In this document: one piece after another, positions 17,334 to 55,578 of the stretch
Layout: each line of letters opens with the position of its first letter
Numbering within the stretch: the stretch's first letter is position 1
DNA from: an uncultured Planctomycetia bacterium
GTDB lineage: Bacteria; Omnitrophota; Gorgyraeia; 2-02-FULL-51-18
NCBI GenBank assembly: GCA_964628355.1
Contig: CAZVNB010000014.1
Location: 1 to 63,624 of the forward strand
Reading direction: 5' to 3'
Length of the DNA: 63,624 nucleotides
Notes under the pieces: generated by a model
What the model saw: the letters and a program-made list of their open reading frames with translations, nothing else
The model's database searches: none
Told to the model about the DNA's origin: nothing
Translations under genes and position numbers: made by a program

Positions 17334-17362
17334 TTGATACAATATACATTTTAGTGTATACT
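17334..17362 (+). promoter_or_regulatory. Sigma70 promoter with overlapping palindromic operator of the TA operon
   Basis: TTGATA, 17-bp spacer, TATACT. Inverted repeat TATACA-N6-TGTATA (17343-17360) covers the spacer and -10. SD AGGAGG at 17369-17374. Confidence 0.75.
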
Positions 17363-17378
17363 TTTGTTAGGAGGATTT

Positions 17379-19363: not shown

Positions 19364-19365
19364 TT

Positions 19366-19437
19366 TGTCATTGTGAGGCCACGAAGTGGCCGAAGCAATC
19401 TGATCGGTTAGATTGCTTCGCTGCGCTCGCAATGACA
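19366..19437. repeat. 72-bp REP-like palindromic element (GTCATTGCGAG...GAAGCAATC...GATTGCTTC...CTCGCAATGAC type)
   Basis: Outer IR TGTCATTGTGAG/CTCGCAATGACA (11/12). Inner perfect 11-bp stem CGAAGCAATCT/AGATTGCTTCG. Side hairpin GGCCAC-GAA-GTGGCC. Confidence 0.85.
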
Positions 19438-19450
19438 CAAAGTGAGTGGT

Positions 19451-26354: not shown

Positions 26355-26361
26355 TAAACAT

Positions 26362-36370: not shown

Positions 36371-36625
36371 ATGGAAATTAAAGAAAATGAAGTTTATACA
36401 CACGAAGAAACCCAAGCACTGCTGAAAGTCAGCGCGAGTACGGTCACGCGCATGATTAAAAAAGGGTTGATCCGGACTGCAAAAGTGGGCAAACAGTACC
36501 GCATTATGGGTAAAGAACTTCTGAGGATATTGTCGCCGGAGCTTGAGGATAAGGTGGGAAAGGTCTACAACAAGGCTCGGAATTGGGCGCATGCCGACGT
36601 TGACGATAAGCGGGGGGTTCAATGA
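36371..36625 (+). CDS. Excisionase/MerR-like (HTH_17, BldC-like) DNA-binding protein
   Basis: YTHEETQALLKVSASTVTRMIKKGLIRTAKVGKQYRI winged-HTH pattern; stop overlaps pseB (ATGA). Confidence 0.88.
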   Translation: MEIKENEVYTHEETQALLKVSASTVTRMIKKGLIRTAKVGKQYRIMGKELLRILSPELEDKVGKVYNKARNWAHADVDDKRGVQ

Positions 36626-37590: not shown

Positions 37591-37594
37591 CGGA

Positions 37595-38530
37595 GTGTCG
37601 GTGAAAATTTCCGTGCTTGGGGATAGCGGCCTTCTGGGCCAGGCGCTTGTTCAAAGATTTTTATCAGGTACGGATGAAGTGCTTGGAATTTCTTCCGGTG
37701 ATTTCACAGGAAATCCTCACCGGGTATGGAATGAAGCAGGCTATCGGCATCAAAAGATCGATATTTTAAAGCAGAGAAAGTTGTTTTATAACATCCTAGG
37801 TCATTTTAAACCGCAGCTTTTAGTAAACTGCGCGGCATTGGTGGATTTGGGTTTTTGTGAGAAAGAACCCGGCCTGGCAGAAGCATTGAATTCATGCGTT
37901 CCGGAAGATTTGGCCAAATTTACGAAGATGGAAGGGATCCGTTTTATTCATATCTCAACGGATCAAGTGTTCGATGGAAAAAAGTCCAGCCCTTACCTGG
38001 AAACCGATACAGCCAAGCCTCTTCACGTTTATGGCCAAACAAAATATGTGGGTGAACAAAAAACAATGGAGCGAAACCCAACCGCTTTGGTGATACGAAC
38101 GAATATTGTGGGTTTTCGTGACCGCCAGGACCGACCCACATTTGCGGAGTGGTTGAGTGAAACTTTGCGGCGGAGAGAGCCCATTTTGTTGGCCGATGAT
38201 TTTGTGACAAGTTCCGTGCATGTGGACGCGCTTTCCCAATGGATCGTGAGTGCGCATCAACGCCGGCTTGAGGGACTGTTTCATTTTGCCACCCGCGACA
38301 GCGCTTCCAAATATGATTTTGGACGCCAGTTTGCTTTGAATGCCGGTTTGGATTTTGGGACCGTGAAGAAAGGAAAACTTAGTCAGTTGCAACTTAAACC
38401 GGAACGTGCACCGTATCTGGCACTCGATGTCCAACGTGGTGAGAAGATGTTGGAGATGTCATTGGAAACTATCGCTGATACAACGCGTCGCTTAGCGCGA
38501 GATTTTCAATCCAGACAGAAAAAAAGATGA
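37595..38530 (+). CDS. RmlD-like NDP-4-keto-sugar reductase (SDR)
   Basis: GDSGLLG, NCAA, HISTDQVFDG, YGQTK. Confidence 0.87.
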   Translation: MSVKISVLGDSGLLGQALVQRFLSGTDEVLGISSGDFTGNPHRVWNEAGYRHQKIDILKQRKLFYNILGHFKPQLLVNCAALVDLGFCEKEPGLAEALNSCVPEDLAKFTKMEGIRFIHISTDQVFDGKKSSPYLETDTAKPLHVYGQTKYVGEQKTMERNPTALVIRTNIVGFRDRQDRPTFAEWLSETLRRREPILLADDFVTSSVHVDALSQWIVSAHQRRLEGLFHFATRDSASKYDFGRQFALNAGLDFGTVKKGKLSQLQLKPERAPYLALDVQRGEKMLEMSLETIADTTRRLARDFQSRQKKR

Positions 38531-39621
38531 ATAGGCATAAAAGTAAAATCAAAAGAGAAACGACTCTGAATGTGCAGGGACGACTGATCGGTTTGGCGCA
38601 CCCCACCTATTTTATAGCGGATATCGCGGCGAATCATGATGGAAACCTTGAAAAAGCCAAGAAGTTGATTTCGCTGGCAAAGCAAGCCGGAGCTGACGCG
38701 GCTAAATTCCAGCATTTCCAAGCGGACAAAATTGTGAGTCGCCATGGTTTTGAGTCCTTTGGGAGCCAGCTATCGCATCAGTCCCGATGGAAGAAATCGG
38801 TTTATCAGGTTTATCAAGAAGCCAGCGTCCCATGGGAGTGGACCAAGAGCTTAAGGGATCACTGCCAAAAGGTGGGCATTCATTTTTTTTCGGCGCCGTA
38901 CGATCTTGAAGTTATTGACAAGTTGAATTCATATATGCCCGCCTACAAGGTAGGTTCTGGAGACATTACTTGGCATGAATCCTTAGAACGAATGGCTTCC
39001 AAAAAAAAACCCATATTTCTGGCGACGGGCGCTTCCTCCATTGAAGAAGTCAGTCGGGCGGTCCAGATCATCACCAAAATTAATCCGCGGCTTTGCTTGA
39101 TGCAGTGCAACACCAACTACACCGGCAGTCGTGATAATTTCCGTTATATTCATCTCAATGTATTGAAGGCCTATGCCCGTAAATTTCCAAATGTTGTGTT
39201 GGGTTTAAGCGACCACACCCCGGGACACGCGACGGTATTGGGAGCGGTGGCTCTGGGCGCACGTGCTATTGAAAAACATTTTACCGATAGCCGTAAAAAT
39301 ACAGGTCCGGATCACGGTTTTTCAATGGAACCGGGGGATTGGAAGGAGATGATCGATAGGACGCGCGAACTTGAAATGGCGCTCGGGATCGAGCAAAAAA
39401 AAATTCAGCCAAATGAAAAAGAAACGGTGTTGATCCAGAGGCGTTGTTGCCGCGCAGCGCGGGATCTTAAACCCGGCGATCTGGTTCGGCGCCAGGACAT
39501 CGATGTATTAAGGCCCATGAAACCCGGCTCCCTGACTCCGCCGGAAATGCACGGCCTCATCGGCAAAAAAATTAAACGCTTCGTTCCGAAAGGTGAAGCG
39601 TTGATGAGTCATTGGTTTTAA
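38527..39621 (+). CDS. N-acetylneuraminate synthase family (PseI/NeuB) nonulosonate synthase with C-terminal SAF domain
   Basis: IADIAANHDG, AKFQ, YKVGSGD, GLSDHT, IEKHFT, PDHGFS. Confidence 0.93.
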   Translation: MNRHKSKIKRETTLNVQGRLIGLAHPTYFIADIAANHDGNLEKAKKLISLAKQAGADAAKFQHFQADKIVSRHGFESFGSQLSHQSRWKKSVYQVYQEASVPWEWTKSLRDHCQKVGIHFFSAPYDLEVIDKLNSYMPAYKVGSGDITWHESLERMASKKKPIFLATGASSIEEVSRAVQIITKINPRLCLMQCNTNYTGSRDNFRYIHLNVLKAYARKFPNVVLGLSDHTPGHATVLGAVALGARAIEKHFTDSRKNTGPDHGFSMEPGDWKEMIDRTRELEMALGIEQKKIQPNEKETVLIQRRCCRAARDLKPGDLVRRQDIDVLRPMKPGSLTPPEMHGLIGKKIKRFVPKGEALMSHWF

Positions 39622-40653: not shown

Positions 40654-40656
40654 CCC

Positions 40657-41424
40657 GTGGCTACGGCGACTGAATTTTCATTGATTGTAACCTGCTATAA
40701 TTTTGAAGAGTATCTTGGCGAATGCCTCGAGTCCCTTATCCAGCAGCAGTATGAACCTAAAAATTTTGAAATTATCTGCGTCGATGATGGAAGCACGGAT
40801 GGATCGCCAGAAATTATAAAAGAGTATCAGAAAAAATCAGACTGCCTAATCCCCATTCGACTAAATAACTCAGGTCTTGAAAAGGCGTGTAACGCGGGAA
40901 TTCAGGTCGCCCATTTCAAACGCGTTGTTCGCGTCGACTCCGATGACATGCTGGCGACTAATTTTTTAGCGGTGATGAATCAGGCGATTTTGACCCGACC
41001 CGATTTTGATTTTTATTATTGCAAAAATTATTACGAATATTATTCGCCCAATGAAAACTTCGCCAAAATACTCCCGGATTTTGATGTTGAGGAAATTTTC
41101 AAAAGGGGCGATTTTTTTGCAACCGGAACGGTTTATCAAAAAAAAGATCTTGCTCAAATAGGTTTTTTCCCAGAAGGGATTAAAAATTGCGGGCTTGAGA
41201 ATTATAGCGTGATACTTGCGATGCTTGAGGACGGAAAAAAGGGGCTCGCCGTTCCCGGGACTTTTTTTAGTTATCGTAGGCACAAGACCAATATGAGTAC
41301 GCTGAGACGCCAGTCGATCATCGAGTATGGAAAAAAATTGCTTAGAAAGCACAACCGTGTTTTTCAAACTAACCCGTATCATCCTTACGGATTGAAGCTT
41401 GTGGCGGAGGAAACTAAAAAGTGA
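40657..41424 (+). CDS. GT2/GT-A glycosyltransferase
   Basis: VTCYN, DDGSTD, RVDSDD; GTG start. Confidence 0.85.
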   Translation: MATATEFSLIVTCYNFEEYLGECLESLIQQQYEPKNFEIICVDDGSTDGSPEIIKEYQKKSDCLIPIRLNNSGLEKACNAGIQVAHFKRVVRVDSDDMLATNFLAVMNQAILTRPDFDFYYCKNYYEYYSPNENFAKILPDFDVEEIFKRGDFFATGTVYQKKDLAQIGFFPEGIKNCGLENYSVILAMLEDGKKGLAVPGTFFSYRRHKTNMSTLRRQSIIEYGKKLLRKHNRVFQTNPYHPYGLKLVAEETKK

Positions 41425-42179
41425 AGTCTCGAATGTCACAACGGCGTGTTGCGACGGTGGAAGCGCGCATGGCCTCGAGTCGTTTGCCGGGAAAAATCTT
41501 GAAGAATATTTTAGGAAAATCAAGCCTCGAGAGGCTTGTGGAGAGGGTGCGCCGCTCAAGACTGATCGACGAAGTGGTGGTGGCGACGACGATCAATCCG
41601 CAGGACGATGCGGTGGAGACGTGGGCAAAAAAAACGGCTGTCTCTTTTTATCGTGGCAGTGAAGAAGATGTTCTTTTGAGAGTGCTTGAAGCGGCAAAAG
41701 CGTTTCAGGCGGATATTATCGTGGAACTGACCGGCGATTGTCCGTTGCTCGACCCCGTGCTGATAGATCAGGTGATTGAGAAATATCTTCATAGTGACTA
41801 TGACTATGTTAGCAATAACAAAGAAAGAAGCTACGCCAGGGGTTTTGACGCGCAAGTTTTTTCGGTCAAGGTGCTTGATGAAGTGAGCCGATTGACGAAA
41901 GATCCCGCCGATCACGAGCACGTCTCCCTTTATATTTATGAGCATCCTGAGCGTTATAAATTATTCACACTGTGGGCACCGGAACACCTTCACGCGCCGG
42001 ATCTAAGATTGTGCGTGGACACGCCCGAAGATTTTTTTGTCGTAGAGTCCATCTACAAGGCGTTGTATCCCAAAAAGCCGGACTTTGACGCCGAGGAGAT
42101 TATGAATTTTATCAAACAACACCCTGAAATAGCTCAAGTCAATAGCGTGGTCAAGCAAAAGCCCGCGAGGATGCCATGA
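41421..42179 (+). CDS. SpsF/PseF-type acylneuraminate cytidylyltransferase family protein
   Basis: EARMASSRLPGKIL, RGSEEDVL, LTGDCPLLDP, EHV, LCVDTPED. Confidence 0.88.
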   Translation: MKSRMSQRRVATVEARMASSRLPGKILKNILGKSSLERLVERVRRSRLIDEVVVATTINPQDDAVETWAKKTAVSFYRGSEEDVLLRVLEAAKAFQADIIVELTGDCPLLDPVLIDQVIEKYLHSDYDYVSNNKERSYARGFDAQVFSVKVLDEVSRLTKDPADHEHVSLYIYEHPERYKLFTLWAPEHLHAPDLRLCVDTPEDFFVVESIYKALYPKKPDFDAEEIMNFIKQHPEIAQVNSVVKQKPARMP

Positions 42180-43204
42180 AAAAAAAGGTTTATAAAGCTG
42201 CCATTGTGGGCTGCGGCCGGATTGCGAGTCTTTTTGCGGCGGATAAAAAAAGAAAGGGAATCGTCACGCATGCACAAGCCTATCAGGCACATCCTCGCAC
42301 GAGGCTTATTTCCGCCTGTGACCTTAACCGCGAGAGGCTTGAGGATTTTGGGCGCCGTTGGAACGTGGACAGGCTTTACACCGATTTTGAGGAAATGATG
42401 AAGACCGAAAAACCTGACATCGTCAGTATTTGCACGTTCAACTCAAGCCACGCGGAGATTGCCGGCCAAGCGGCTAAGCATGGCGTGAGTGGAATTATTT
42501 GCGAGAAACCCATTGCCGATTCGCTGGCTTCTGCCGAGCGGATGATCAAGATTTGCCGCGATAAAAACATCCCGCTCCTGGTTAATTATTCTAGGCGTTA
42601 CGATGCACTTCATCAGCAGTTTAAAACGTGGATTGAAAAAGGTCATTTGGGGAAGGTGCAAACCGTTTCCTGTTATTACACGGCCGGGATCATGAATACT
42701 GGGACGCATCTTTTTGATATCCTACGCTACTTCTTCGGAGAGGTCCGATGGGTTTGGGCAAATCCAGAAAAAGTGCTGCCCGGTAAGGACCCAACCGCGG
42801 ACCTCTATTTATTTTTTAAAAAGGGATTTGGCTGCAATGTATCCGCCCTCGATGTGCGGAATTATATGCAATTCGAGATTGATATTTATGGGACTAAAAG
42901 TCGGCTCCGGATCGAAGACAGCGGCATGAGGGCTACGCGATGGAAAGTAGAAAATCACAGGCTTTATTCGGGGTACAAGACGTTGGTTCCGAGTAAAATT
43001 TTTAGTACGGATTTTGGAAAAAATCTATATGGAATGGTTGATAGCCTGGTGCGTTTGATCGAGAGAAAAAAAGCGCCTGCCTGCAAAGGGGAAGATGGAA
43101 AAAAATCATTAGAAATAGCCATTGCCGCTTATCTGTCGCTTCAAAGGAAACAAAAAATATTTCTCCCACTTAAAGATAAAAAATTGGTTTTGGAGTCTTT
43201 ATGA
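42176..43204 (+). CDS. Gfo/Idh/MocA oxidoreductase
   Basis: GCGRIA, ICEKP, VNYSRR, NTGTHLFD. Confidence 0.88.
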   Translation: MKKKVYKAAIVGCGRIASLFAADKKRKGIVTHAQAYQAHPRTRLISACDLNRERLEDFGRRWNVDRLYTDFEEMMKTEKPDIVSICTFNSSHAEIAGQAAKHGVSGIICEKPIADSLASAERMIKICRDKNIPLLVNYSRRYDALHQQFKTWIEKGHLGKVQTVSCYYTAGIMNTGTHLFDILRYFFGEVRWVWANPEKVLPGKDPTADLYLFFKKGFGCNVSALDVRNYMQFEIDIYGTKSRLRIEDSGMRATRWKVENHRLYSGYKTLVPSKIFSTDFGKNLYGMVDSLVRLIERKKAPACKGEDGKKSLEIAIAAYLSLQRKQKIFLPLKDKKLVLESL

Positions 43205-44493
43205 AAAAATCAAATCTGGCTATTTTGGGCGGCCAACCCGTAAGAAAAAAAGCGTTCAAATCACATCCGTTGTTTGGAAAAGAAGAAAAAAAAGAAGTGT
43301 TGTCTGTGTTGAAAAGTGGACAATTGTCAGGTTTTATCGCGAACGCGGGTCCCGCTTTTTTGGGAGGAATGAAGGTTCGCGCGCTGGAGTCGCTCGTTTC
43401 AAGATATTTCGATATTCCTTATGTGGTTGCCATGAACTCCGCCACATCCGCACTGCACGCAGCGTTATCGGCTTTGGGCATAGGTCCGGGCGACGAAGTG
43501 ATCGTGACGCCTTATACCATGGCGGCAAGCGCTTCGGCTATTTTGATGCAGGGGGCCGTACCAATTTTTGCTGATATTGACGAGCGCACTTTTTGCTTTA
43601 ATCCTAAAAAAATCGAAGAAAAAATTTCATCACGCAGCAAAGCTCTAATGGTTGTGCATCTTTTTGGCCAGCCGGCACCGATGGATGAGATCATGAAAAT
43701 AGCGAGAACACACAAGCTTTCAGTCGTTGAAGACTGTGCTCAGTCGCCCGGAGCGCGCTATCATGACCAATTCGTTGGAACTTTGGGCGATGTCGGCGTT
43801 TTTAGTTTGAACCAACACAAAACTATCACTACCGGCGAAGGAGGTTTCGCAGTAACAAAAGACAAAAAATTGGCCGTGAGACTGCAACTTGTCCGAAATC
43901 ATGGCGAGGTCGTCGTCGATCATTTGAAAATGGATTTTGATCCAGGGCCGGTTTTGGGCTTCAATTACCGCATGACGGAACTGGAAGCGGCAGTGGGAGT
44001 GGCGCAGTTTAAGAAATTAGACAAGCTGAATCAACACAGAATAAAACTTGCAGAATATTTGATCGAAAAACTTTCGGATTTACCCGGGATCACCGTTCCT
44101 CACAGGCTTTCCGAGACAAGCCACGTCTATTTCCTTTTGCCTCTGAAATATGATGAGGCGATAACAGGTATTCCGCGTGATATTTTTATCAAAGCGTTGA
44201 ATGCGGAAGGAGTGCCATTTGGCGCGGGTTACGTGCGCCCGATTTATCTGGACCGCGCTTATCGCGAACGCCGGATTTACCCATACAGCTCTTTTCCGTT
44301 CGAGGGAACACTCCCATACAAAAAAGGCGATTGTCCGACGGCCGAACGTCTGCATTTCAAGGAATTGATTACGACTTCTTTGTGCCGGTATCCGCTTTCA
44401 TTGTCTGACATGGCCGATGTTGCTGCTGTTGTTAAAAAAGTTTTAGAATGCCGCAACGAACTTCAAAACGCTCGTCGATTGGGAAAGGCCTAA
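43201..44493 (+). CDS. DegT/DnrJ/EryC1/StrS sugar aminotransferase (PseC-role candidate)
   Basis: NSATSAL, EDCAQSPGA, FSLNQHKTITTGEGG (PLP Lys), NYRMTELEAA. Confidence 0.92.
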   Translation: MKKSNLAILGGQPVRKKAFKSHPLFGKEEKKEVLSVLKSGQLSGFIANAGPAFLGGMKVRALESLVSRYFDIPYVVAMNSATSALHAALSALGIGPGDEVIVTPYTMAASASAILMQGAVPIFADIDERTFCFNPKKIEEKISSRSKALMVVHLFGQPAPMDEIMKIARTHKLSVVEDCAQSPGARYHDQFVGTLGDVGVFSLNQHKTITTGEGGFAVTKDKKLAVRLQLVRNHGEVVVDHLKMDFDPGPVLGFNYRMTELEAAVGVAQFKKLDKLNQHRIKLAEYLIEKLSDLPGITVPHRLSETSHVYFLLPLKYDEAITGIPRDIFIKALNAEGVPFGAGYVRPIYLDRAYRERRIYPYSSFPFEGTLPYKKGDCPTAERLHFKELITTSLCRYPLSLSDMADVAAVVKKVLECRNELQNARRLGKA

Positions 44494-44496: not shown

Positions 44497-46383
44497 ATGA
44501 GAGACCTTTTCTTAATCGAGACCACGGGCTGCGTTTCCTTGCTAAAATCAATACGCGGCGAGCGATCGGAGGGTTATTGCGCATCTTTTGACGAGCTTGT
44601 GATCCGTGAACTTAAAACAGCGGGAATCTCTGCCGTATGGCTTGGAAATTTTTCGAACGCGCAAGAATTAGCTCAAGCAGACGATGTGGCGGTGAGTGCG
44701 GCGAGAGGATGGCATGAAGGGCAGACGCATTGGAGCTATCGCGGCGTCAATCTTGCTTCTCTGGTGGAGTTGGCGCTGGGACCTTATCTAATGCGTGCTC
44801 TTGAGTATTTGACGTGTGCGGATAATTTTCTCAAAGTTCATTCGTTCAGGCAAGTGACAGTTCTTCGTAAAATTCCGGAGAGACCGGTGAGTTCTTTGAA
44901 TTGGATGCCCTCCGAAGCGATTGCGGAAGCCCTATTTAAAATGCTGGGCTGCAATGTTCAGGTCAAAACTGTACAAAAAATCGATAAGCCGGCGGTGCAT
45001 TTTAACTTCAAAATAGCTGCGAAAAAGACGATGGAATTTCTAACAAAAATATTTTCGCATTTTGAAACTTCAGGGGGTGCCACACTTTCCCAAAAAACCA
45101 TTTTGATTTGTTCAGCACTCCATCATATCCAAAATCTGGCTCCGCTGGTCGCACGAAAAAACCGGGTGATTTATCTGGACGAGAGTTTTCAAGGGTCCAA
45201 ATTAAATTTTTTACACCGGCATCAGATTTTTTATATGCCAATGCCATGGCTTGACCATAAACTCTGCCAAGAATCCCAAGAGAAAAGGAATTTTGTTCAG
45301 CGGCTTCGAGTCGAATGGCCAGGGATCATGGATTTATTAAAACAGTCCAAAGATTGGCAATGGCGCGGCGTGCCAATTTTTTGTCTGGCAGAGCTCAAGC
45401 TCCGTTTTTTTGCGGACATCAAAGTCCCCGAACTCTTGGATCGTATCGATATTTTTTTTGACGTATTGTCCCGATGGAATATTCAGGCTGTTGTTGTGGA
45501 TGAGGACGTGATTGAGTTTAGAAAAGGCCTGGTTAGTGTGGCGCGGCTTTTAGGGATTCCGAGTCTTGTGGTGTTACACGCGTCGACACCCAGTTTTTGC
45601 AAAGGTTTGGATCTAGCGCCTTTGACTGCAGATTATTTAGCCGTGGGCGGTGAAGGGATCAAACATGATTGCGTTCAATGGGGGATTTCACCGGAGAAAA
45701 TCGTGGTGTCCGGTATCCCGCGTTACGACGGCTTAAAAAAAATGAATTCGCATCGATCGCGCAAGGAAATAGAGCGGACGCTAGGAATTTCTTCTAAAAA
45801 GGAGCTGGTCGTATTTGCCGCCACCTATATTGCCGATCATCTGGAGACTCGTGGCTCGTGGACCGATATCGAAAGAGCCTATCGAGATTTTTTCGAGGTG
45901 ATGAGTCGTTTCCCCGATAAGCAAATCCTCGTGAAATTATACCCGATGGACCCCAATCCTTCCTGGGTCAGGCGCATTGCCGAAGAATCCGGCGTGTTCG
46001 ATGTTTTGTTCGCTGGCGATTGCGATCTCCCGACGGTTCTCGCGGGGGCCGATTACGCATTGTCGTTTTACTCAAGCGCTGTAACGGAGGCTTTTGTTCT
46101 TGGGAAGTGGACCGTGGTGATGGATTATTTGAGCAGGCTTTCTCCTATCGAGCCTTTATCTCATTATCCGGGTTCGGTATTTACAGTAAAAAATAAGGCG
46201 CAGCTTGAAACGTTGCTACATGGTTTTTTTGATCGCGATGAGAATATTTTAAGAGCAGCCGAACAGGCCCGTGCTGAATTAACCTTTGCTTGGGCCGGAC
46301 GTTGCGATGGCCGCGCTTCTTTGCGCGTGTCGGATTTTCTAGATCGTATGGTGACGAATCCGAAGGAATTACAAGCGGCATGA
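44497..46383 (+). CDS. Uncharacterised GT-B-like surface-carbohydrate protein (candidate nonulosonate transferase)
   Basis: C-terminal half resembles GT-B / 2-epimerase-like folds (VVVDED, SGIPRYD, VKLYP, SSAVTEAFVLGK). Function inferred from its position between NulO synthesis genes and the flippase. Confidence 0.5.
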   Translation: MRDLFLIETTGCVSLLKSIRGERSEGYCASFDELVIRELKTAGISAVWLGNFSNAQELAQADDVAVSAARGWHEGQTHWSYRGVNLASLVELALGPYLMRALEYLTCADNFLKVHSFRQVTVLRKIPERPVSSLNWMPSEAIAEALFKMLGCNVQVKTVQKIDKPAVHFNFKIAAKKTMEFLTKIFSHFETSGGATLSQKTILICSALHHIQNLAPLVARKNRVIYLDESFQGSKLNFLHRHQIFYMPMPWLDHKLCQESQEKRNFVQRLRVEWPGIMDLLKQSKDWQWRGVPIFCLAELKLRFFADIKVPELLDRIDIFFDVLSRWNIQAVVVDEDVIEFRKGLVSVARLLGIPSLVVLHASTPSFCKGLDLAPLTADYLAVGGEGIKHDCVQWGISPEKIVVSGIPRYDGLKKMNSHRSRKEIERTLGISSKKELVVFAATYIADHLETRGSWTDIERAYRDFFEVMSRFPDKQILVKLYPMDPNPSWVRRIAEESGVFDVLFAGDCDLPTVLAGADYALSFYSSAVTEAFVLGKWTVVMDYLSRLSPIEPLSHYPGSVFTVKNKAQLETLLHGFFDRDENILRAAEQARAELTFAWAGRCDGRASLRVSDFLDRMVTNPKELQAA

Positions 46384-47879
46384 AGGACTCGTTGAGAGAC
46401 AGAATAGCCAAGGATACGCTTTGGTACACGCTGAGCGTTTATATCGCGCAATTCTTGGGTATTTTTTCAGGCCTTGCATCACGCAAATTTTTGGGCCCCG
46501 AGGACATGGGGCTCTGGGTATTGCTCCAGACTTTTATGACATTTGGTCTATTTTCCGAGATGGGCATTCTCACGGCGATGTATTGCAAGATACCGGTTTT
46601 TGTGGGACAGAAGGACGCGGAGCAAGTTCGTCAAACTCAAAATGCCGCTTTCACGTTTGCGTTTACAGGCGTGATCGGCGTAGCGTTTCTTTTTATCGGT
46701 TATGGTTTATTTGCCGGGCATGAGAGCCCAAAGATTTTTTTAGGATCTGTCGCGATGGCGGCCTTGACGATTCTCACATGCATTTATAATTTTTATATTT
46801 TATGTTCGTGGGCGCTGAACCGTTTTAAAGCATTGGCGCTCACTGTGATTTTAAATGCGGTGTTGACTCTTGTGCTCGTTTTTTTGTTTGTTCGCCCGTG
46901 GGGTTTTTATGGAAGCTGCGCCTATACGTTGATAGTCACTTTGATTTCTGTCGTCACCCTCTCTAACGCTTTGAAAATCAGCCCATCTTTTCTATGGGAC
47001 TGGAAGCGCATAAAAGATCTTTTATGGTTTGGTTTTCCGGTTTTTGCCGGTGGAATGATTTTCGTATTTTTTCTCACGGTCGATCGTATGATCATCACCC
47101 GTTTTTTTGACAGCCGCGCGCTCGGTTATTACAGCATTACGATGATTGTCTTTTCGCTCTCGAGCACGGCACCGAAGATGCTCAGCATCGTGCTGTTTCC
47201 TAAGATGCAGGAAGAATATGCAGCGTCCGGCGATTTGGATAAAATTATGCAGATGGTGGTGAAGCCCGATCTTGCGATCGCTTTTTTCTCACCGCTGCTT
47301 TTGGGGAGCGTCTATTTTTTTGTGCCAACCGTTGTGACACAAATACTACCGAAGTTCACACCGGGCATTTTAAGTGCCCAGGTATTGCTTCTGGGAGGGT
47401 TTTTTATTTCTTTGGTATACAATGCCCAGAGTTTCTTGATTGCTGTCGATAAGCGGATGCATTCGATCCCGTTTGTCTTGTGCTCGATTCTCGTTCTTTA
47501 CGCGGTCAGCAGGTGTTTGATTCGGCTTGGGTATGGAATTGAAGGCGTCGCGGCCGGGGCGAGCGTTGCATTTTTTACCTATTTTGTATCGCTCACTTTT
47601 TACGTGTTGAATCATCGACTGAATTACGCAAAGATGGCGGCGTACTACGTACCAATTATTACGGTCTTTCTGTATTTTCTTTTCTGGATTTGGTGGATCG
47701 GAGCCCATGTTTACCCCGGAGGCCCATGGATGGGAAGCAGCATCAAAACTATTTTACTGACGGTGGTATCCGTGCCGATTTTTTATCTCGGGGATAGGAA
47801 AACCCACGCGATCCGATATGGTTTTTATTTGATCGCGCAACGTTTGGGGCGTCGTGAAACAGAAAGGGCGACAAGATGA
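46380..47879 (+). CDS. wzx: Wzx-type oligosaccharide/polysaccharide flippase (MOP superfamily)
   Basis: About 12-14 TM segments; KFLGPEDMG, DRMIITRFF..ALGYYS; start ATG 46380. Confidence 0.85.
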   Translation: MKDSLRDRIAKDTLWYTLSVYIAQFLGIFSGLASRKFLGPEDMGLWVLLQTFMTFGLFSEMGILTAMYCKIPVFVGQKDAEQVRQTQNAAFTFAFTGVIGVAFLFIGYGLFAGHESPKIFLGSVAMAALTILTCIYNFYILCSWALNRFKALALTVILNAVLTLVLVFLFVRPWGFYGSCAYTLIVTLISVVTLSNALKISPSFLWDWKRIKDLLWFGFPVFAGGMIFVFFLTVDRMIITRFFDSRALGYYSITMIVFSLSSTAPKMLSIVLFPKMQEEYAASGDLDKIMQMVVKPDLAIAFFSPLLLGSVYFFVPTVVTQILPKFTPGILSAQVLLLGGFFISLVYNAQSFLIAVDKRMHSIPFVLCSILVLYAVSRCLIRLGYGIEGVAAGASVAFFTYFVSLTFYVLNHRLNYAKMAAYYVPIITVFLYFLFWIWWIGAHVYPGGPWMGSSIKTILLTVVSVPIFYLGDRKTHAIRYGFYLIAQRLGRRETERATR

Positions 47880-48433
47880 AGCAAAAAATTTTTTGGGAAG
47901 GACGGCGACTTTATTTCAGAGGTTTAGAGAAAAAGGATCTTCGCGAGCGTTATTTTGATTGGTTCAACGACCAAGAGGTCACGCGCTACATGTTCAACGG
48001 GATGTTTCCAAATACGACCAAACGGATGCGCGAGTTTTATGAGGAAATATTAGTGCAGAAGCATGTGGTATTTGCGATCATGGACAAGCGCAGGGGCCAG
48101 CATATCGGCAACGTGGGGATTCATCGGATCAACTGGCGGGACGGCATCGGGGAGTATGGTATAATCATCGGGGAGAAAAAATTTCACGGCAAAGGCTATG
48201 GCCATGAAGCTACCGGGATGATCCTCGATTATATTTTCCAACGCGTCGGTCTGCGTCGCGTATGGCTGGGTGTTCACGAACAGCATAAAAAAGCGATCGC
48301 AATTTATAAAAAAATTGGGTTTGAAACCGAAGGTCGGCTTAGGAAAGAAATTTATACGGATGGCCGATGGCATGATCGTTTGATCATGGGTATTTTCCGG
48401 GACGAATATCTGGCTCGAAAAAAGAGGGGATGA
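47876..48433 (+). CDS. GNAT (RimJ/RimL-type) N-acetyltransferase, PseH-role candidate
   Basis: HIGNVG, GKGYGHEA, YKKIGFETEGRLR. Confidence 0.88.
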   Translation: MKQKIFWEGRRLYFRGLEKKDLRERYFDWFNDQEVTRYMFNGMFPNTTKRMREFYEEILVQKHVVFAIMDKRRGQHIGNVGIHRINWRDGIGEYGIIIGEKKFHGKGYGHEATGMILDYIFQRVGLRRVWLGVHEQHKKAIAIYKKIGFETEGRLRKEIYTDGRWHDRLIMGIFRDEYLARKKRG

Positions 48434-49530
48434 TGTCAAAATACGGCGAACCGATGTACCCGACCTTGAAATACTGTGCGCGTTGCTGCCTGCCGGAAAC
48501 CACCGAGGGCATCCAGTTTGATGAGATGGGAATTTGCCAAGCTTGCCAGTCTGCCGAACAAAAAATCCATATCAATTGGGTGGAGCGCGAAAAAGAACTA
48601 CGCAAGATTCTAGATCATCATAAAAAAATTGCCGGAGATAACTACGACTGCATTGTTCCGATCAGCGGTGGGAAGGACAGCACGTTTCAATTGCACGTGT
48701 TGACGCAGGTTTACAAAATGAAACCTTTGGCTGTGACGTTCAGCCACAATTGGTTCAGCGAAACGGGCCGCTACAATTTGACGAACGCAATCGAAAAATT
48801 CAACGTGGATCATATCCTGTTCACGCCGAGTCGCGATTTGGTCAACCGCCTGGCGCGTGAATCGTTGAAACAGATCGGTGATTCCTGCTGGCATTGTCAT
48901 GCTGGAGTGGGAGCCTTTCCCCTGCAGGTGGCGGTGCGTTTCAGGGTCCCTCTTTTAATTTGGGGTGAATCTATCTCCGAGTCATCAGGCCGTGCCTGCT
49001 ATTTTGAGCCGGTCCGAAAATTTGACCGGGATTATTTTACCAAAGTCTCGGCCAAGGTGTATCCAGACAAAATGATCAATCAAGAAATTTCAAAAAAAGA
49101 TATTTACCCCTTCCAGTTGCCAACTTATGAGGAAATTGATCGAGTTGGAGTGGTCGGAATACATCTCGGGGATTATCTTTTTTGGGATGACGAACGACAA
49201 ATGGAGTTCGTCAGGGACGTTTATGGGTGGCGCGAAGATAAAGTGGAAGGTACTTACAAACGTTATAAAAGCGTCGAATGTGTCATGGCGGGCGTGCATG
49301 ATTATTCAAAATTTGTGAAACGCGGATTTGGACGAGGCACGGATCATGCCAGCGCGGATGTGCGCGCCGGCCTTTTGACGCGTGAAGAAGCTTTCGAAAT
49401 GGCAAAGAAATATGATTCGGAAAGACCCGAAATGTTGGATTATTATCTCAAGCTCACCGGCTATACGGAGCAGCAATTCATGGAAATTGTTAAATCTCAC
49501 CGGGAAGGCAAATCCAAATATCTTTCTTGA
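48430..49530 (+). CDS. N-acetyl sugar amidotransferase (WbuX/WbpG/PseA family, PP-loop)
   Basis: CARCCLP..CQAC, YDCIVPISGGKDS, CWHCH, KFVKRGFGR. Confidence 0.9.
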   Translation: MMSKYGEPMYPTLKYCARCCLPETTEGIQFDEMGICQACQSAEQKIHINWVEREKELRKILDHHKKIAGDNYDCIVPISGGKDSTFQLHVLTQVYKMKPLAVTFSHNWFSETGRYNLTNAIEKFNVDHILFTPSRDLVNRLARESLKQIGDSCWHCHAGVGAFPLQVAVRFRVPLLIWGESISESSGRACYFEPVRKFDRDYFTKVSAKVYPDKMINQEISKKDIYPFQLPTYEEIDRVGVVGIHLGDYLFWDDERQMEFVRDVYGWREDKVEGTYKRYKSVECVMAGVHDYSKFVKRGFGRGTDHASADVRAGLLTREEAFEMAKKYDSERPEMLDYYLKLTGYTEQQFMEIVKSHREGKSKYLS

Positions 49531-49534
49531 TGTT

Positions 49535-50896
49535 ATGAGCGGCGATCTTCATCTCTTAACGGTGGCGGAAGCTACAAATCTTATCCGATCGGGCGAAATA
49601 AATTCGCAGGAACTGGTGTCCGCCTGCGTTGGGCAGATCGAGAAGTTCGAGCCTCGCCTTAAGGCTTGGGCTTATTTGAACGCCGAGAAGGCGTTGGACC
49701 AAGCCAAAGCATTCGATGAAAAACGGCCACGGAGCGGCCAGGCCCCAGGTCTTTTAGGAGGTGTGCCCGTCGGAATCAAAGATGTTTTTAATACGATTGA
49801 TGCGCCAACGGCGATGGGTAGTCCCCTCTGGAAGGATTTTACCCCCGGTAACGATGCCCGCGCCGTGTTTCATCTTAAACGTGCGGATGCCATCATGATG
49901 GGCAAGACGGTTACGGCCGAATTTGCCGTACATGCCCCGGGTCCGACGTTAAATCCTCACGACCCCACGCGAATTCCAGGCACTTCTTCCAGCGGTTCAG
50001 CGGTGGCTGTGGCTTCCAAGATGGTTCCATGCGCACTTGGTACGCAAACCGCCGGCTCTGTGATTCGTCCAGCCAGCTATTGCGGTATTTACGGCATGAA
50101 ACCTTCTTTTGGCTTGATTCCGCGCACCGGCATGCTCAAAACTACGGATTCACTGGACACCATAGGTTTTTTTTCAAGAAGCGCGGAAGATCTTGAGATT
50201 TTATTGGATGTTTTGAGGGTACACGGCCAGGATTACCCTATCAGCGAAACCAAGTTAAGCGACCGTATTTTCCAAAATAAAAAAGGCGAAAAATGGCGGG
50301 TCGCTATTGTCGAGACGACCGTTTCAGAATGCGCCGAATCTTATGCAAGAGAAGCCTTGCGAGATTTTGCCGAAACGCTTTCCGAAGACAAGGACATGCA
50401 AATTTCTTATTTTAATTTGCCCACAGCTTTTGGTGAGGCGCATGATGTTCATGAGATTATTTATGACAAAAGCTTAGCCTATTATTTCAAGAATGAATAT
50501 AAAGAAAAGACGCTGATTAGCCGGGAAATCAAGGCGATGATCGAACACGGCAATGCGGTGACGCTTGAAGAATACCGCAAGGCGACCCTCCGGCAAAATC
50601 AACTGGCGCACCAGCTGGAGGATTTGCTATCGGAATTCGATGCGTGCTTTACGCTTTCCACTGCCGGTGAAGCGCCAAAAATCGGTGTTGATGAAAAAAA
50701 GGACAGCTGTCTTATTTGGACGCTTTGCGGCATTCCGGCGGTGAATCTGCCATTTTTGAAGGGGCCGTCGGGTTTGCCGATGGGACTTCAAGCGATATCC
50801 GAAAGATATTCGGACCTGCGCTTGCTTCGGTTTGTAAAAATTTTAGGTGAGCGTTTTGCCGAGCCGTTTCAACTATCTAAAAGAGGGAGATCATGA
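49535..50896 (+). CDS. Amidase-signature (GatA-like) amidase
   Basis: VGIKD (Lys), PGTSSSGSAV (Ser), GTQTAGSVIRPAS (nucleophile Ser), GMKPSFG, LPMGLQ; start ATG 49535. Confidence 0.9.
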   Translation: MSGDLHLLTVAEATNLIRSGEINSQELVSACVGQIEKFEPRLKAWAYLNAEKALDQAKAFDEKRPRSGQAPGLLGGVPVGIKDVFNTIDAPTAMGSPLWKDFTPGNDARAVFHLKRADAIMMGKTVTAEFAVHAPGPTLNPHDPTRIPGTSSSGSAVAVASKMVPCALGTQTAGSVIRPASYCGIYGMKPSFGLIPRTGMLKTTDSLDTIGFFSRSAEDLEILLDVLRVHGQDYPISETKLSDRIFQNKKGEKWRVAIVETTVSECAESYAREALRDFAETLSEDKDMQISYFNLPTAFGEAHDVHEIIYDKSLAYYFKNEYKEKTLISREIKAMIEHGNAVTLEEYRKATLRQNQLAHQLEDLLSEFDACFTLSTAGEAPKIGVDEKKDSCLIWTLCGIPAVNLPFLKGPSGLPMGLQAISERYSDLRLLRFVKILGERFAEPFQLSKRGRS

Positions 50897-51486
50897 AAGA
50901 TACGCAACAGCTCGAGATTTGGAGAGGAAAATTTGGGAAGGCTTACACGGATCGCAATCTCGTCAGCCCTGGAGAGAAGAAACCTTTGTTCAAGAAAATG
51001 CTAAAAGGACTAACATTGTCACAGGTTCTTGAGGTCGGCTGTAACCGTGGCCACAATCTTGTGGCGTTGGCGGATCTTTTAAAGATCGAACCGGTGGGTA
51101 TCGAGCCCAATGATTACGCAAGAAAGAAGGCCAGGCAGGCCGACCCGCGAATTTCGGTTCTTAAAAGCACCGCGTTTGATCTGCCATTTAAGGATGGCGT
51201 GTTTGACCTCGCATTTACTTCGGGTGTGCTGATCCATATTTGTTTGCAGGATCTTCCGCTGGCCATTGACGAGCTCTGTCGGGTGAGTCGACGGTATGTT
51301 CTGGCTTCCGAATATTATGGCGAAAAGGAGACCGCGATCCACTATCGGGGCCACAACCATTTATTGTGGAAGAGAGATTTCAAGTCCCATTTTCTTAAGC
51401 GTCATCCGGAGCTTAAATTAATTCACAGCGGTTTCTACGGAGAAGAGATCAACCATCGCATGGACTGGTGGTTATTTGAAAAGTAG
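50893..51486 (+). CDS. Pseudaminic acid biosynthesis-associated methyltransferase
   Basis: QLEIWRGKFGKAYTDRN, LEVGCN.G.NL, FTSGVLIH, EYY...YRG....LWKRDF. Confidence 0.85.
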   Translation: MKDTQQLEIWRGKFGKAYTDRNLVSPGEKKPLFKKMLKGLTLSQVLEVGCNRGHNLVALADLLKIEPVGIEPNDYARKKARQADPRISVLKSTAFDLPFKDGVFDLAFTSGVLIHICLQDLPLAIDELCRVSRRYVLASEYYGEKETAIHYRGHNHLLWKRDFKSHFLKRHPELKLIHSGFYGEEINHRMDWWLFEK

Positions 51487-55470: not shown

Positions 55471-55578
55471 ATGAAAAAATATCTTTTCTTGTTTTGGACG
55501 TTTTTTGTGCTGATAAACTATTTTAGTTTGTTTGCAATGCCTAAACTTACGGCTCTCGCGGGGCATCACCCATGGTGA
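55471..55578 (+). CDS. Small single-TM peptide (35 aa), not in the ORF track
   Basis: MKKYLFLFWTFFVLINYFSLFAMPKLTALAGHHPW. Starts 3 nt after the YfhO stop and its TGA overlaps the next start, filling the only gap in the operon. Confidence 0.45.
   Translation: MKKYLFLFWTFFVLINYFSLFAMPKLTALAGHHPW

What the first reader, a model, noticed from the sequence alone, without database searches (positions are those of the whole stretch)
47876..51486. WbuX-family amidotransferase paired with a GatA-like amidase instead of HisH/HisF: a candidate new ammonia-supply module for sugar amidination
Seen: GNAT, then a PP-loop N-acetyl sugar amidotransferase (SGGKDS, Cys clusters), then a 453-aa amidase-signature protein with an intact Lys/Ser/Ser triad (4 nt downstream), then the Pse methylase (ATGA overlap). 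No hisH/hisF-like, gatB or gatC gene is in the window. Known: WbuX/WbpG-type enzymes that form acetamidino or amide sugars are normally encoded with HisH/HisF-like glutaminase partners (WbuY/WbuZ), and GatA is the glutaminase that feeds ammonia in GatCAB. Inference: a GatA-fold glutaminase has been recruited as a non-orthologous ammonia donor for glycan modification. Alternatively it de-N-acylates the sugar before re-acylation or methylation.
Basis: partly seen in the sequence, partly recalled or inferred. Interest (0 to 1): 0.78.

Follow-up and report, generated by a model that had tools for sequence, protein, structure and literature searches.

The report
Amidase-partnered sugar acetamidino synthase module
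A sugar-decorating enzyme that usually gets its ammonia from two histidine-pathway-like helper proteins is here, and in well over 100 other bacterial and archaeal species, always paired with (sometimes fused to) an amidase, which points to an undescribed two-part amidotransferase for cell-surface sugars.

Summary
GNAT (47876-48433), a WbuX/NASAT PP-loop amidotransferase (48430-49530), a 453-aa amidase-signature protein with an intact Lys82/cis-Ser151/Ser175 triad (49535-50896) and a Pse-associated methylase (50893-51486) sit head to tail inside a nonulosonic-acid gene cluster. The window has no HisH, HisF, GatB or GatC.

The pairing is not a local accident.
- Of 80 genomes found through this WbuX type, 79 carry the amidase next to it. 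The single exception is a truncated contig.
- Of 63 loci of a HisH/HisF-type WbuX clade, none carries the amidase and 57 carry HisH and HisF.
- In a tree of 190 WbuX copies, all amidase-linked copies form one clade that contains no HisH/HisF-linked copy.
- Where HisH/HisF occur in an amidase locus, they adjoin extra, divergent WbuX paralogues wherever the fetched sequence is long enough to check.
- At least 60 protein clusters are natural WbuX-amidase fusions.

The amidase is therefore a dedicated partner that displaces HisH/HisF, most likely as the ammonia-generating subunit. Its closest solved relative is malonamidase E2, not GatA. The amide donor and any ammonia channel remain inferred. I found no paper describing this pairing.

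Verdict: a real, widespread, apparently undescribed variant of a known kind of enzyme system.

The parts
47876..48433 (+). GNAT N-acetyltransferase (PseH-like). It probably installs the N-acetyl group that WbuX then converts.
   Evidence: PF13302 E 8.5e-26 and a weak TIGR03585 PseH match. A homologue is present in 62 of 80 related loci, usually directly upstream of WbuX. GNAT-WbuX fusion proteins exist, for example P0163 and P0225.
48430..49530 (+). WbuX/NASAT-family PP-loop N-acetyl sugar amidotransferase of the amidase-linked clade. This is the synthetase subunit.
   Evidence: TIGR03573 scores 343 bits against a cut-off of 203. SGGKDS lies at residues 79-84 and the Zn-type motif at C16xxC19...C36xxC39. 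More than 100 protein clusters are 72-86% identical. The protein falls in the single amidase-linked clade of the WbuX tree.
49535..50896 (+). Amidase-signature protein with a K82/cis-S151/S175 triad. It is the proposed ammonia-generating subunit.
   Evidence: PF01425 E 1.8e-79. The triad is invariant in 27 homologues. The best solved relative is malonamidase E2. It lies immediately downstream of WbuX in 118 of 126 unique loci, is fused to WbuX in 5, and lies upstream in 3.
50893..51486 (+). Pse-associated SAM methyltransferase. It is an accessory gene and possibly N-methylates the acetamidino group.
   Evidence: TIGR03587 scores 159 bits against a cut-off of 112. It overlaps the amidase by ATGA. 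A homologue is present in only 16 of 80 related loci. Precedent: PtmG and PtmH in C. jejuni (PMC13317340).
36622..37590 (+). PseB, the inverting UDP-GlcNAc 4,6-dehydratase. This is the first gene of the nonulosonic-acid pathway that supplies the substrate.
   Evidence: TIGR03589 scores 506 bits against a cut-off of 408.
37595..38530 (+). RmlD-like sugar-nucleotide reductase.
   Evidence: PF04321 E 1.2e-44. TIGR01214 scores 160 bits, below its cut-off.
38527..39621 (+). NeuB/PseI-like nonulosonic acid synthase.
   Evidence: TIGR03569 scores 261 bits and TIGR03586 scores 254 bits, both below their cut-offs. A homologue is present in most related loci.
41421..42179 (+). CMP-sugar cytidylyltransferase (CTP_transf_3).
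   Evidence: PF02348 E 1.4e-30. It recurs in related loci.
42176..43204 (+). Gfo/Idh/MocA oxidoreductase.
   Evidence: PF01408 and PF02894. It recurs next to DegT in related loci.
43201..44493 (+). DegT/PseC-like aminotransferase.
   Evidence: PF01041 E 6e-93. TIGR03588 PseC scores 236 bits, below its cut-off. It is present in nearly all related loci.
44497..46383 (+). Putative nonulosonic-acid transferase (BFO_1060-like, with a Glyphos_transf region).
   Evidence: NF046086 E 2e-13 and PF04464 E 2e-6. The function is inferred from the family name only.
46380..47879 (+). Wzx-type flippase. The start is taken at the ATG at 46380; the ORF as listed starts at a TTG at 46290.
   Evidence: PF13440 and PF01943. 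The relative in L227 is 495 aa long.

Best explanation
The WbuX-type PP-loop enzyme and the adjacent amidase-signature protein form one dedicated amidotransferase, made of two subunits here and fused in other organisms.

The amidase hydrolyses a small primary amide and hands the released ammonia to WbuX. The donor is most plausibly glutamine, but this is not shown. WbuX uses ATP to activate the carbonyl of an N-acetyl group on the cluster's nonulosonic-acid sugar (or its nucleotide-sugar precursor). It then converts that group to an acetamidino group.

The upstream GNAT makes the N-acetyl group. In this window the downstream methylase may N-methyl the amidine. The amidase plays the role that the HisH/HisF-like pair (WbuY/WbuZ, HisH2/HisF2) plays for other WbuX clades.

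Shown: the anatomy, intact catalytic motifs, strict clade-specific co-occurrence, exclusivity with HisH/HisF, and gene fusions.

Inferred: ammonia release and transfer, the identity of the amide donor, the acceptor sugar and position, and the target of the methylase.
For: - **Motifs and domain assignments:**
- **Reciprocal conservation across about 126 species-level loci:**. The taxa include Omnitrophota, CPR, Verrucomicrobiota, Chloroflexota, Proteobacteria, Bacteroidota, Halobacteriales and Nanoarchaeota.
- **A HisH/HisF-type WbuX clade:** 57 of 63 loci have HisH and HisF, and 0 of 63 have the amidase.
- **Phylogeny:** a neighbour-joining (NJ) tree of 190 WbuX copies puts all 121 amidase-linked tips in one clade with no HisH/HisF-only tip.
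- **Loci with several WbuX paralogues:** in L016 and L054 each paralogue sits next to its own partner type.
- **Fusions:** five WbuX-amidase fusions occur in genome loci. At least 60 fusion clusters and 8 WbuX-WbuX'-amidase clusters occur in the protein database, including Solidesulfovibrio alcoholivorans and Thalassospira isolates.
- **Structure prediction:** the AlphaFold2 model of a fusion has mean pLDDT 92.6, with only about 10 poorly ordered linker residues.
- **Relatives release ammonia:** the nearest characterised relatives (malonamidase E2, GatA) and the hydrolases of the AtzE and allophanate families all release ammonia from small carboxy-amides (family knowledge; matches). The nearest WbuX-less sister amidases sit behind TRAP carboxylate transporters.
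- **Precedent:** HisF2 physically binds WbpG and was proposed to deliver ammonia to it (PMC11445079).
- **No other ammonia source in the window:** no other glutaminase gene is present.
Against: - No biochemical data exist for any member. Glutaminase activity is not shown.
- The gatA equivalog model is not met (226 bits against a cut-off of 481).
- By a hand alignment that relies on my recollection of the S. aureus GatA sequence, the glutamine-binding Arg358 and Asp425 of GatA do not appear conserved. This was not tested with a tool.
- The pTM of the fusion model is only 0.64 and no PAE or coordinates were available, so a defined interface or tunnel is not demonstrated.
- Some WbuX homologues (Alistipes L084, and PseA of Campylobacter from the literature) have no encoded partner, so WbuX enzymes may be able to use free ammonia.
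- In Chthoniobacterales loci HisH/HisF are encoded in the same cluster, yet the amidase is kept. That fits dedicated pairing, but it also leaves room for a role other than ammonia supply.
Confidence: 0.65

Rival explanations
1. The amidase acts on the sugar itself. It removes an N-acyl group (de-N-acetylation) or hydrolyses the amidine, as an editing, re-acylation or turnover step coupled to WbuX. It is not an ammonia source.
For: Some amidase-signature enzymes cleave secondary amides, for example FAAH, NylA, aryl acylamidases and urethanases, all of which appear among the structural matches. Tight coupling and fusion would also fit two consecutive steps on one substrate. Glutamine-binding residues of GatA are not evident.
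Against: - The complementary distribution with HisH/HisF by WbuX clade is what non-orthologous displacement of the same role predicts. It is not what an extra tailoring step predicts.
- The conserved upstream neighbour, sometimes a fusion partner of WbuX, is an N-acetyltransferase. A deacetylase in the same module would be futile.
- The closest relatives hydrolyse small primary amides.
Confidence: 0.12
2. The amidase does supply ammonia, but this WbuX clade (at most 38% identical to the sampled HisH/HisF-linked WbuX clade) makes a different product. Examples would be a carboxamide at C1 of the nonulosonic acid, or amidination of another acyl group.
For: The clade is deeply separated from the HisH/HisF-linked clade sampled here. 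From general knowledge, no WbuX-family enzyme has been reconstituted in vitro (the LpNASAT structure paper, says little is known about function). PP-loop enzymes also amidate carboxylates, for example NadE and AsnB (family knowledge). Some loci carry three WbuX paralogues, more than the two N-acyl positions of a standard nonulosonic acid.
Against: The protein scores well above the TIGR03573 cut-off and keeps all family motifs. GNAT adjacency and fusion point to an N-acetyl substrate. The methylase pairing mirrors PtmG/PtmH, which make an N-methylacetimidoyl group.
Confidence: 0.1
3. The amidase works as an acyl-transferase or transamidase, like the amidase-signature enzyme ClbL. It would attach an acyl or aminoacyl group to the sugar or to the WbuX-activated intermediate, giving a substituted amidine or amide.
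For: ClbL is among the sequence matches (8es6), so the fold can form amide bonds. Nonulosonic acids carry many exotic N-acyl groups (PMC5378307).
Against: The match to ClbL is weak (90 bits against 200 for malonamidase E2). The displacement pattern against HisH/HisF argues for plain ammonia supply. Nothing positive points to a transferase role.
Confidence: 0.05
4. The adjacency has no functional meaning and reflects chance or hitch-hiking within a mobile glycan island.
For: Glycan clusters are mosaic and often transferred horizontally.
Against: 79 of 80 loci carry the amidase against 0 of 63 (p = 2e-40). The gene order is fixed, with gaps of -10 to +50 nt. Independent protein fusions exist. 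The pair persists across phyla while the flanking genes vary.
Confidence: 0.01

Closest known systems
WbuX/WbuY/WbuZ (E. coli O145), WbpG/HisH2/HisF2 (P. aeruginosa O5), MMP1081-1083 (Methanococcus maripaludis): N-acetyl sugar amidotransferase with HisH/HisF-like ammonia suppliers
   Same: The synthetase family is the same: TIGR03573, a PP-loop and a Zn tetracysteine motif. The logic is the same: a dedicated, adjacently encoded partner for each WbuX paralogue. The glycan-modification context is the same.
   Different: The partner is one amidase-signature protein instead of a class-I glutaminase plus a HisF barrel. This WbuX clade is at most 38% identical to the sampled HisH/HisF-linked WbuX clade and separates cleanly from it. 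Fused forms exist.
GatCAB tRNA-dependent amidotransferase (GatA = amidase-signature glutaminase)
   Same: It combines an amidase-signature fold and Lys/cis-Ser/Ser triad with an ATP-using activating subunit. To my knowledge it is the only established case in which this fold serves as the ammonia-generating part of an amidotransferase.
   Different: The amidase here is not a GatA orthologue: 226 bits against a cut-off of 481, and TM 0.76-0.79 against 0.86-0.87 for malonamidase E2. There is no GatB or GatC. The acceptor is a sugar N-acetyl group, not an aminoacyl-tRNA. The activating partner is a PP-loop adenylating enzyme, not the GatB kinase type.
Malonamidase E2 of Bradyrhizobium japonicum (PDB 1ocl, 1obi and others)
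   Same: It is the closest solved relative over the full length: 200 bits, about one third identity, TM 0.86-0.87. It hydrolyses a small carboxy-amide to ammonia. The GKT-T--FA...NPH and TQT-GSVIRPA motifs are shared.
   Different: Malonamidase E2 is a free-standing catabolic enzyme. The WbuX-linked family is a separate orthologous group (51-65% identity within the group), has family-specific invariant residues and is tied or fused to WbuX.
PseA / PtmG (acetamidino synthases) with PtmH (N-methyltransferase) in the Campylobacter jejuni flagellin glycosylation locus
   Same: A WbuX-family enzyme acts in a pseudaminic/legionaminic acid pathway and is followed by a methyltransferase that can give an N-methylacetimidoyl group.
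   Different: The Campylobacter enzymes have no described dedicated ammonia-supplying partner. Here an amidase is obligatory for the clade.
Glutamine-dependent NAD synthetase, GMP synthetase and asparagine synthetase B (PP-loop-type synthetases joined to nitrilase-type, class I and class II glutaminases)
   Same: The design is the same: an adenylating PP-loop synthetase joined or fused to an ammonia-generating hydrolase domain (family knowledge).
   Different: The hydrolase fold here is the amidase-signature fold. I found no description of that fold joined to a PP-loop synthetase.

Membership tests
WbuX / NASAT N-acetyl sugar amidotransferase (TIGR03573) | Score above the curated family cut-off | tested here: met
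   343 bits against a cut-off of 203, covering model positions 2-343 of 344.
WbuX / NASAT N-acetyl sugar amidotransferase (TIGR03573) | PP-loop SGGXDS | tested here: met
   S79-GGKDS-84. The motif is defined in PMC10607449.
WbuX / NASAT N-acetyl sugar amidotransferase (TIGR03573) | Zn-binding tetracysteine motif CXXCXn[GN]XCXXC | tested here: met
   C16-ARC19 ... G34-I-C36-QAC39. The motif is given in PMC10607449. These Cys residues are invariant across distant WbuX proteins.
WbuX / NASAT N-acetyl sugar amidotransferase (TIGR03573) | Adjacent HisH-like and HisF-like genes (WbuY/WbuZ type). This is typical context, not strictly defining. | tested here: not met
   There is no HisH or HisF in the window. 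Only 2 of 80 amidase-seeded loci and 5 of 80 WbuX-seeded loci carry HisH or HisF. Where the flanks are long enough, those genes adjoin other WbuX paralogues.
WbuX / NASAT N-acetyl sugar amidotransferase (TIGR03573) | Converts a sugar N-acetyl group to an acetamidino group | not testable with these tools
   This needs MS or NMR of the product, or an enzyme assay.
Amidase-signature family (PF01425) | Pfam domain over the full length | tested here: met
   E 1.8e-79, residues 26-431 matching model positions 1-445 of 445.
Amidase-signature family (PF01425) | Lys / cis-Ser / Ser catalytic triad and a Gly/Ser-rich signature | tested here: met
   K82, S151 and S175 align with K62, S131 and S155 of malonamidase E2. 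They are invariant in 27 homologues. The signature reads GTSSSGS.
GatA (glutaminase subunit of GatCAB, TIGR00132) | Score above the equivalog cut-off | tested here: not met
   226 bits against a cut-off of 481. The best-matching stretch covers only the N-terminal part, residues 16-296.
GatA (glutaminase subunit of GatCAB, TIGR00132) | Encoded and working with GatB and GatC | tested here: not met
   No GatB or GatC domain occurs in any sizeable ORF of the window. The conserved neighbour is WbuX instead.
GatA (glutaminase subunit of GatCAB, TIGR00132) | Glutamine-binding residues (S. aureus Tyr309, Arg358, Asp425) | not tested
   I had only a hand alignment based on my recollection of the S. aureus sequence. 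It suggested that Arg358 and Asp425 have no conserved equivalent. No GatA sequence was available for a tool-based alignment.
Malonamidase E2-like amidases | Closest sequence and fold match | tested here: met
   phmmer gives 200 bits over residues 62-433. Foldseek gives TM 0.86-0.87 and 32% identity, ranks 1-8.
Malonamidase E2-like amidases | Hydrolyses malonamate | not testable with these tools
   Substrate specificity needs an assay.
Channel-coupled amidotransferase (hydrolase plus synthetase complex) | Physical association of the two activities | tested here: inconclusive
   Natural fusions occur in at least 60 clusters. Translational coupling is common. The AF2 fusion model has pLDDT 92.6 but pTM 0.64, and no PAE or coordinates were available.
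Channel-coupled amidotransferase (hydrolase plus synthetase complex) | Amide-donor-dependent synthetase activity through an ammonia path | not testable with these tools
   This needs enzymology and a complex structure.

The most novel reading that the evidence does not exclude
A widespread, unrecognised class of amidotransferase exists. A malonamidase-E2-like amidase-signature enzyme, recruited independently of GatA, serves as the dedicated (sometimes fused) ammonia-generating module of a PP-loop sugar amidine synthase. It would have its own interface and ammonia path and possibly an amide donor other than glutamine. This would be the second known use of the amidase-signature fold in an amidotransferase and a fourth hydrolase fold found joined to PP-loop synthetases.
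Probability: 0.55. Interest if true: 0.72.

Novelty: new variant of a known kind. Interest (0 to 1): 0.66.

Why it matters
- **Unsolved enzymology.** Acetamidino sugars shape the surface charge, antigenicity and phage or lectin recognition of many bacteria and archaea. To my knowledge the enzymology of amidine formation has never been reconstituted.
- **A better experimental target.** This clade offers a simpler system of two proteins or one fused protein, instead of WbuX plus HisH plus HisF. It occurs in culturable hosts such as Massilia, Pseudoduganella, Methylosinus, Thalassospira and Solidesulfovibrio. That makes the reaction and its ammonia source directly testable.
- **A wider catalogue of amidotransferases.** An amidase-signature ammonia module joined to a PP-loop synthetase is a textbook-style case of non-orthologous displacement.
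- **Annotation.** These genes are currently named only 'amidase' or 'GatA family amidase', and the fusions only 'N-acetyl sugar amidotransferase'. Recognising the pair would improve prediction of surface glycan chemistry in hundreds of genomes, including CPR, Omnitrophota and archaeal lineages.

Tried and rejected
- **Distant WbuX alignment as a locus query.** I used a single HisH/HisF-linked WbuX from plasmid CP049031 instead.
- **Literature.** Searches combining 'N-acetyl sugar amidotransferase', nonulosonic, pseudaminic or legionaminic acid, PP-loop, 'amidase signature' and glutaminase found no paper on this pairing. The Tannerella, Vibrionaceae and Clostridium nonulosonic-acid papers do not mention an amidase.
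- **Malonamidase E2 structure paper.** I tried to read it to map substrate-binding residues, but it is not held.
- **A bona fide GatA sequence.** A plasmid protein search with the amidase listed only 'amidase' genes at 32-39% identity, with no WbuX-linked family member and no gatA among the rows shown. The GatA glutamine-site test was therefore not done with tools.
- **Interface evidence from AF2.** The output gives only pLDDT and pTM (0.64) and no coordinates, so no tunnel or interface analysis was possible.
- **A concatenated WbuX+amidase model for the window proteins.** Not attempted, because only native sequences may be submitted.
- **Inter-protein coevolution (DCA).** Considered and rejected. 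About 200 paired sequences are too few for roughly 800 columns.
- **Rejected readings.** 'GatA orthologue' fails the equivalog score and has no GatB or GatC. 'Chance adjacency' is ruled out by the survey statistics.

Full report
**1. Observation**

| Gene | Coordinates | Evidence |
|---|---|---|
| GNAT | 47876-48433 | PF13302 E 8.5e-26; weak PseH match |
| WbuX/NASAT | 48430-49530, 366 aa | TIGR03573 343 bits, cut-off 203 |
| Amidase | 49535-50896, 453 aa | PF01425 E 1.8e-79 over the full domain |
| Methylase | 50893-51486 | TIGR03587 159 bits, cut-off 112 |

- WbuX has the PP-loop S79-GGKDS and the motif C16xxC19...G34xC36xxC39. That motif matches the Zn tetracysteine motif defined for the only solved family member, LpNASAT (PMC10607449).
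- In the amidase, Lys82, Ser151 and Ser175 align with the K62/cis-S131/S155 triad of malonamidase E2. They are invariant in 27 homologues.
- The genes are translationally coupled. GNAT/WbuX overlap by ATGA, 4 nt separate WbuX from the amidase, and amidase/methylase overlap by ATGA.
- tblastn with E. coli HisH and HisF finds nothing in the window. Domain scans of every sizeable ORF show no HisH, HisF, GatB, GatC or other glutaminase.

**2. Context**

The module closes a nonulosonic-acid cluster:

- PseB (36622-37590; 506 bits against a cut-off of 408)
- an RmlD-like reductase
- a NeuB/PseI-like synthase
- a methyltransferase
- a GT2 glycosyltransferase
- a CMP-sugar cytidylyltransferase
- a Gfo/Idh/MocA oxidoreductase
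- a DegT/PseC-like aminotransferase
- a BFO_1060-like putative nonulosonic-acid transferase
- a Wzx flippase

Downstream lie PMT_2 and YfhO membrane glycosyltransferases. A relative with 86% identical WbuX has the same gene order. FabF resembles Omnitrophota MAGs most closely, at 59-62% identity. The window is therefore probably from that group or near it, but this is tentative.

**3. Is the pairing conserved?**

- The amidase belongs to a large, well-defined orthologous group. More than 120 clusters are 51-65% identical, and their sources name them only 'amidase' or 'GatA family amidase'.
- **Amidase-seeded scan.** A scan of one genome per species found at least 561 relatives. In the best 80 loci, about 69 of the 71 with at least 44% identity have a WbuX of 51-78% identity next to the amidase, nearly always directly upstream on the same strand. 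DegT, Gfo, NeuB, PseB and a cytidylyltransferase are usually nearby.
- **WbuX-seeded scan.** Of 80 loci found through this WbuX type (64-75% identity), 79 carry the amidase. The exception (L200) has only 400 nt of contig after WbuX.
- **Gene order.** Among 126 unique loci the amidase is directly downstream in 118, mostly with gaps of -10 to +50 nt. It is fused to WbuX in 5 and lies upstream in 3.
- **Taxa.** These include Omnitrophota, Patescibacteria/CPR, Verrucomicrobiota, Chloroflexota, Acidobacteriota, Bacteroidota, Cyanobacteriota/Melainabacteria, many Proteobacteria (Massilia, Pseudoduganella, Methylobacter, Methylosinus, Thalassospira, Sulfuricurvum, Pelagibacteraceae), Halobacteriales and Nanoarchaeota.

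**4. Exclusivity with HisH/HisF**

- Other WbuX clades behave as the literature says. Plasmid examples show WbuX-hisH-hisF, hisF-hisH-WbuX and WbuX-hisF-neuD-hisH. One (Alistipes) has no partner at all.
- In 63 genome loci of one such clade (33-38% identical to the window WbuX), 57 have HisH and HisF, mostly immediately downstream. None has the amidase.
- Conversely, only 2 of 80 amidase-seeded loci and 5 of 80 WbuX-seeded loci have HisH or HisF within reach.
- Wherever the fetched flanks are long enough, these genes sit next to additional, divergent WbuX paralogues of 28-36% identity.
  - L016: WbuX2-HisH, and HisF-HisH-WbuX3.
  - L054: HisH-HisF-WbuX2.
  - In L171 and L178 no extra paralogue was seen within the 6-kb flanks.
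- Fisher tests give p = 2e-40 for the amidase and 8e-27 for HisH/HisF.
- In a neighbour-joining (NJ) tree of 190 unique WbuX copies, all 121 amidase-linked tips plus the truncated L200 form one clade. All 60 HisH/HisF-linked tips and all 6 partner-less tips lie outside it.

**5. Fusions**

- Five genome loci encode WbuX and the amidase as one ORF of 855-874 aa (about 875-1002 aa in L049, depending on the start codon), joined by a conserved linker of about 70 residues. They come from a Dehalococcoidia MAG, a Desulfarculia MAG, two proteobacterial MAGs and the isolate Thalassospira sp. MCCC 1A01148.
- A database search with the Thalassospira protein returned at least 60 clusters of full-length fusions (790-1010 aa). 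One is from Solidesulfovibrio alcoholivorans, which NCBI annotates simply as 'N-acetyl sugar amidotransferase'. It also returned 8 clusters of WbuX-WbuX'(degenerate)-amidase.
- GNAT-WbuX fusions also exist.
- An AF2 model of a fusion has mean pLDDT 92.6, with only about 10 poorly ordered linker residues. Its pTM is 0.64 and no PAE or coordinates were returned, so the interface is not established.

**6. What the amidase is related to**

- It is not a GatA orthologue. The gatA model scores 226 bits against a cut-off of 481, and the best match covers only the N-terminal part.
- The closest solved relative by sequence is malonamidase E2, at 200 bits over the full length. GatA structures score 139-147 bits.
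- The same holds by fold. TM is 0.86-0.87 for malonamidase E2, 0.87 for 2dc0, 0.83-0.84 for chain A of 6c62/6c6g (which matches the AtzE family) and 0.76-0.79 for GatA.
- The nearest WbuX-less sister amidases (40-42% identity) sit directly behind TRAP transporters (DctQ and DctM in both loci, DctP also in L074). This is a catabolic context for small carboxy-amides.
- The WbuX-linked family therefore looks like a recruitment from malonamidase-like catabolic amidases, independent of GatA.

**7. Mechanism proposed**

1. GNAT N-acetylates the amino sugar.
2. WbuX adenylates the acetamido carbonyl through its PP-loop.
3. The amidase hydrolyses a small primary amide (glutamine is the obvious candidate) and delivers ammonia.
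4. The acetamidino group forms.
5. In this window, and in about a fifth of related loci, a SAM methylase may then N-methylate the amidine. PtmG and PtmH do this for legionaminic acid in C. jejuni.

Shown: the anatomy, intact motifs, clade-specific obligate pairing, displacement of HisH/HisF, and fusions.

Inferred: ammonia release and transfer, the donor, the acceptor position, and the methylation target.

The precedent for partner-delivered ammonia is HisF2-WbpG, whose interaction was confirmed by co-immunoprecipitation (PMC11445079).

**8. Rivals**

- **A sugar de-N-acylase or amidine hydrolase.** This is disfavoured by the displacement pattern and by the acetyltransferase being the conserved neighbour and occasional fusion partner.
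- **The same ammonia-donor role with a different acceptor,** for example a carboxamide. This cannot be excluded, because to my knowledge no WbuX enzyme has been reconstituted.
- **A ClbL-like transacylase role.** Nothing positive supports it.
- **Chance adjacency.** The statistics exclude it.

**9. Novelty**

I found no paper linking a WbuX/NASAT enzyme with an amidase. The library lacks most subscription journals. No curated NCBIfam model captures this amidase family.

The system is a new variant of a known kind: the sugar amidotransferase is known and its ammonia-supplying module is new. If the mechanism holds, it is, to my knowledge, the second amidotransferase to use the amidase-signature fold and the first to join that fold to a PP-loop synthetase.

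**10. Verdict**

- 'GatA-like' should read 'amidase-signature, malonamidase-E2-like'.
- Glutaminase activity and ammonia channelling remain to be shown.

Noticed in passing
Proteins P0130, P0173, P0185 (614-640 aa) and P0242, P0244-P0248, P0266, P0273 (1123-1183 aa): Some amidase-clade WbuX proteins carry a second, degenerate WbuX-like copy that lacks the PP-loop. It is N-terminal in the 614-640 aa forms and lies between WbuX and the amidase in the 1123-1183 aa forms. This suggests a built-in pseudo-dimer.
   Followed up: partly
L016 (= L196, Chthoniobacterales) 1368-14732; L054 (Adlerbacteria) 8451-15494: Single glycan clusters carry two or three WbuX paralogues, each next to its own partner type (amidase or HisH/HisF). 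L016 also has two NeuB genes. This hints at multiply amidinated sugars or several modified sugars.
   Followed up: partly
L074 6781-11329; L079 8000-11329: The closest WbuX-less relatives of the amidase (40-42% identity, Gammaproteobacteria and Pelomicrobium) lie directly downstream of TRAP transporter genes (DctQ and DctM in both, DctP also in L074). A Rieske oxygenase or a PEP-mutase-like gene is adjacent. Their substrate is unknown.
   Followed up: partly
window 36622-44493: The nonulosonic-acid pathway is non-canonical. It has PseB, an RmlD-like reductase, a Gfo/Idh/MocA oxidoreductase and a DegT aminotransferase. NeuB and PseC score below their equivalog cut-offs. There is no PseG-like gene, although the close relative L227 has a Glyco_tran_28_C gene where the window has a GT2. 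The sugar may not be standard pseudaminic acid.
   Followed up: no
window 28038-29639, 34791-36284, 51476-53149, 53080-55467, 55572-57392: Five large PMT_2/PMT/YfhO-type membrane glycosyltransferases lie in one 63-kb window. Several GT2 and GT4 genes and two UDP-GlcNAc 2-epimerases (32002-33105, 60732-61853) are also present. This is an unusually dense surface-glycosylation region.
   Followed up: no
window 14302-22556: A menaquinone (futalosine-type) and prenyl-decarboxylase gene set is present: a UbiE-like methyltransferase, UbiD, UbiA, a UbiX-like flavoprotein, two radical-SAM CofH/MqnC-type proteins and VitK2_biosynth (MqnA-like).
   Followed up: no
window 24951-26369 (-), 29620-30963 (+), 16505-16978 (+): ORFs of 472, 447 and 157 aa have no Pfam match. 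The first two lie inside the glycan region.
   Followed up: no
window 48430-49530, residues 153-156 (CWHC): A third CxxC motif (GDxCWHCH) is shared by the amidase-type WbuX and the CP049031-type HisH/HisF-linked WbuX. It is absent from the Azospirillum, Pseudohalocynthiibacter and Alistipes WbuX proteins. Its role is unknown.
   Followed up: no
window 3984-9963 and 10116-14251: Housekeeping genes flank the glycan region: plsX, fabH, fabD, fabG, fabF and a FabI-type enoyl-ACP reductase, then SMC and a GAF-GGDEF diguanylate cyclase on the opposite strand.
   Followed up: no
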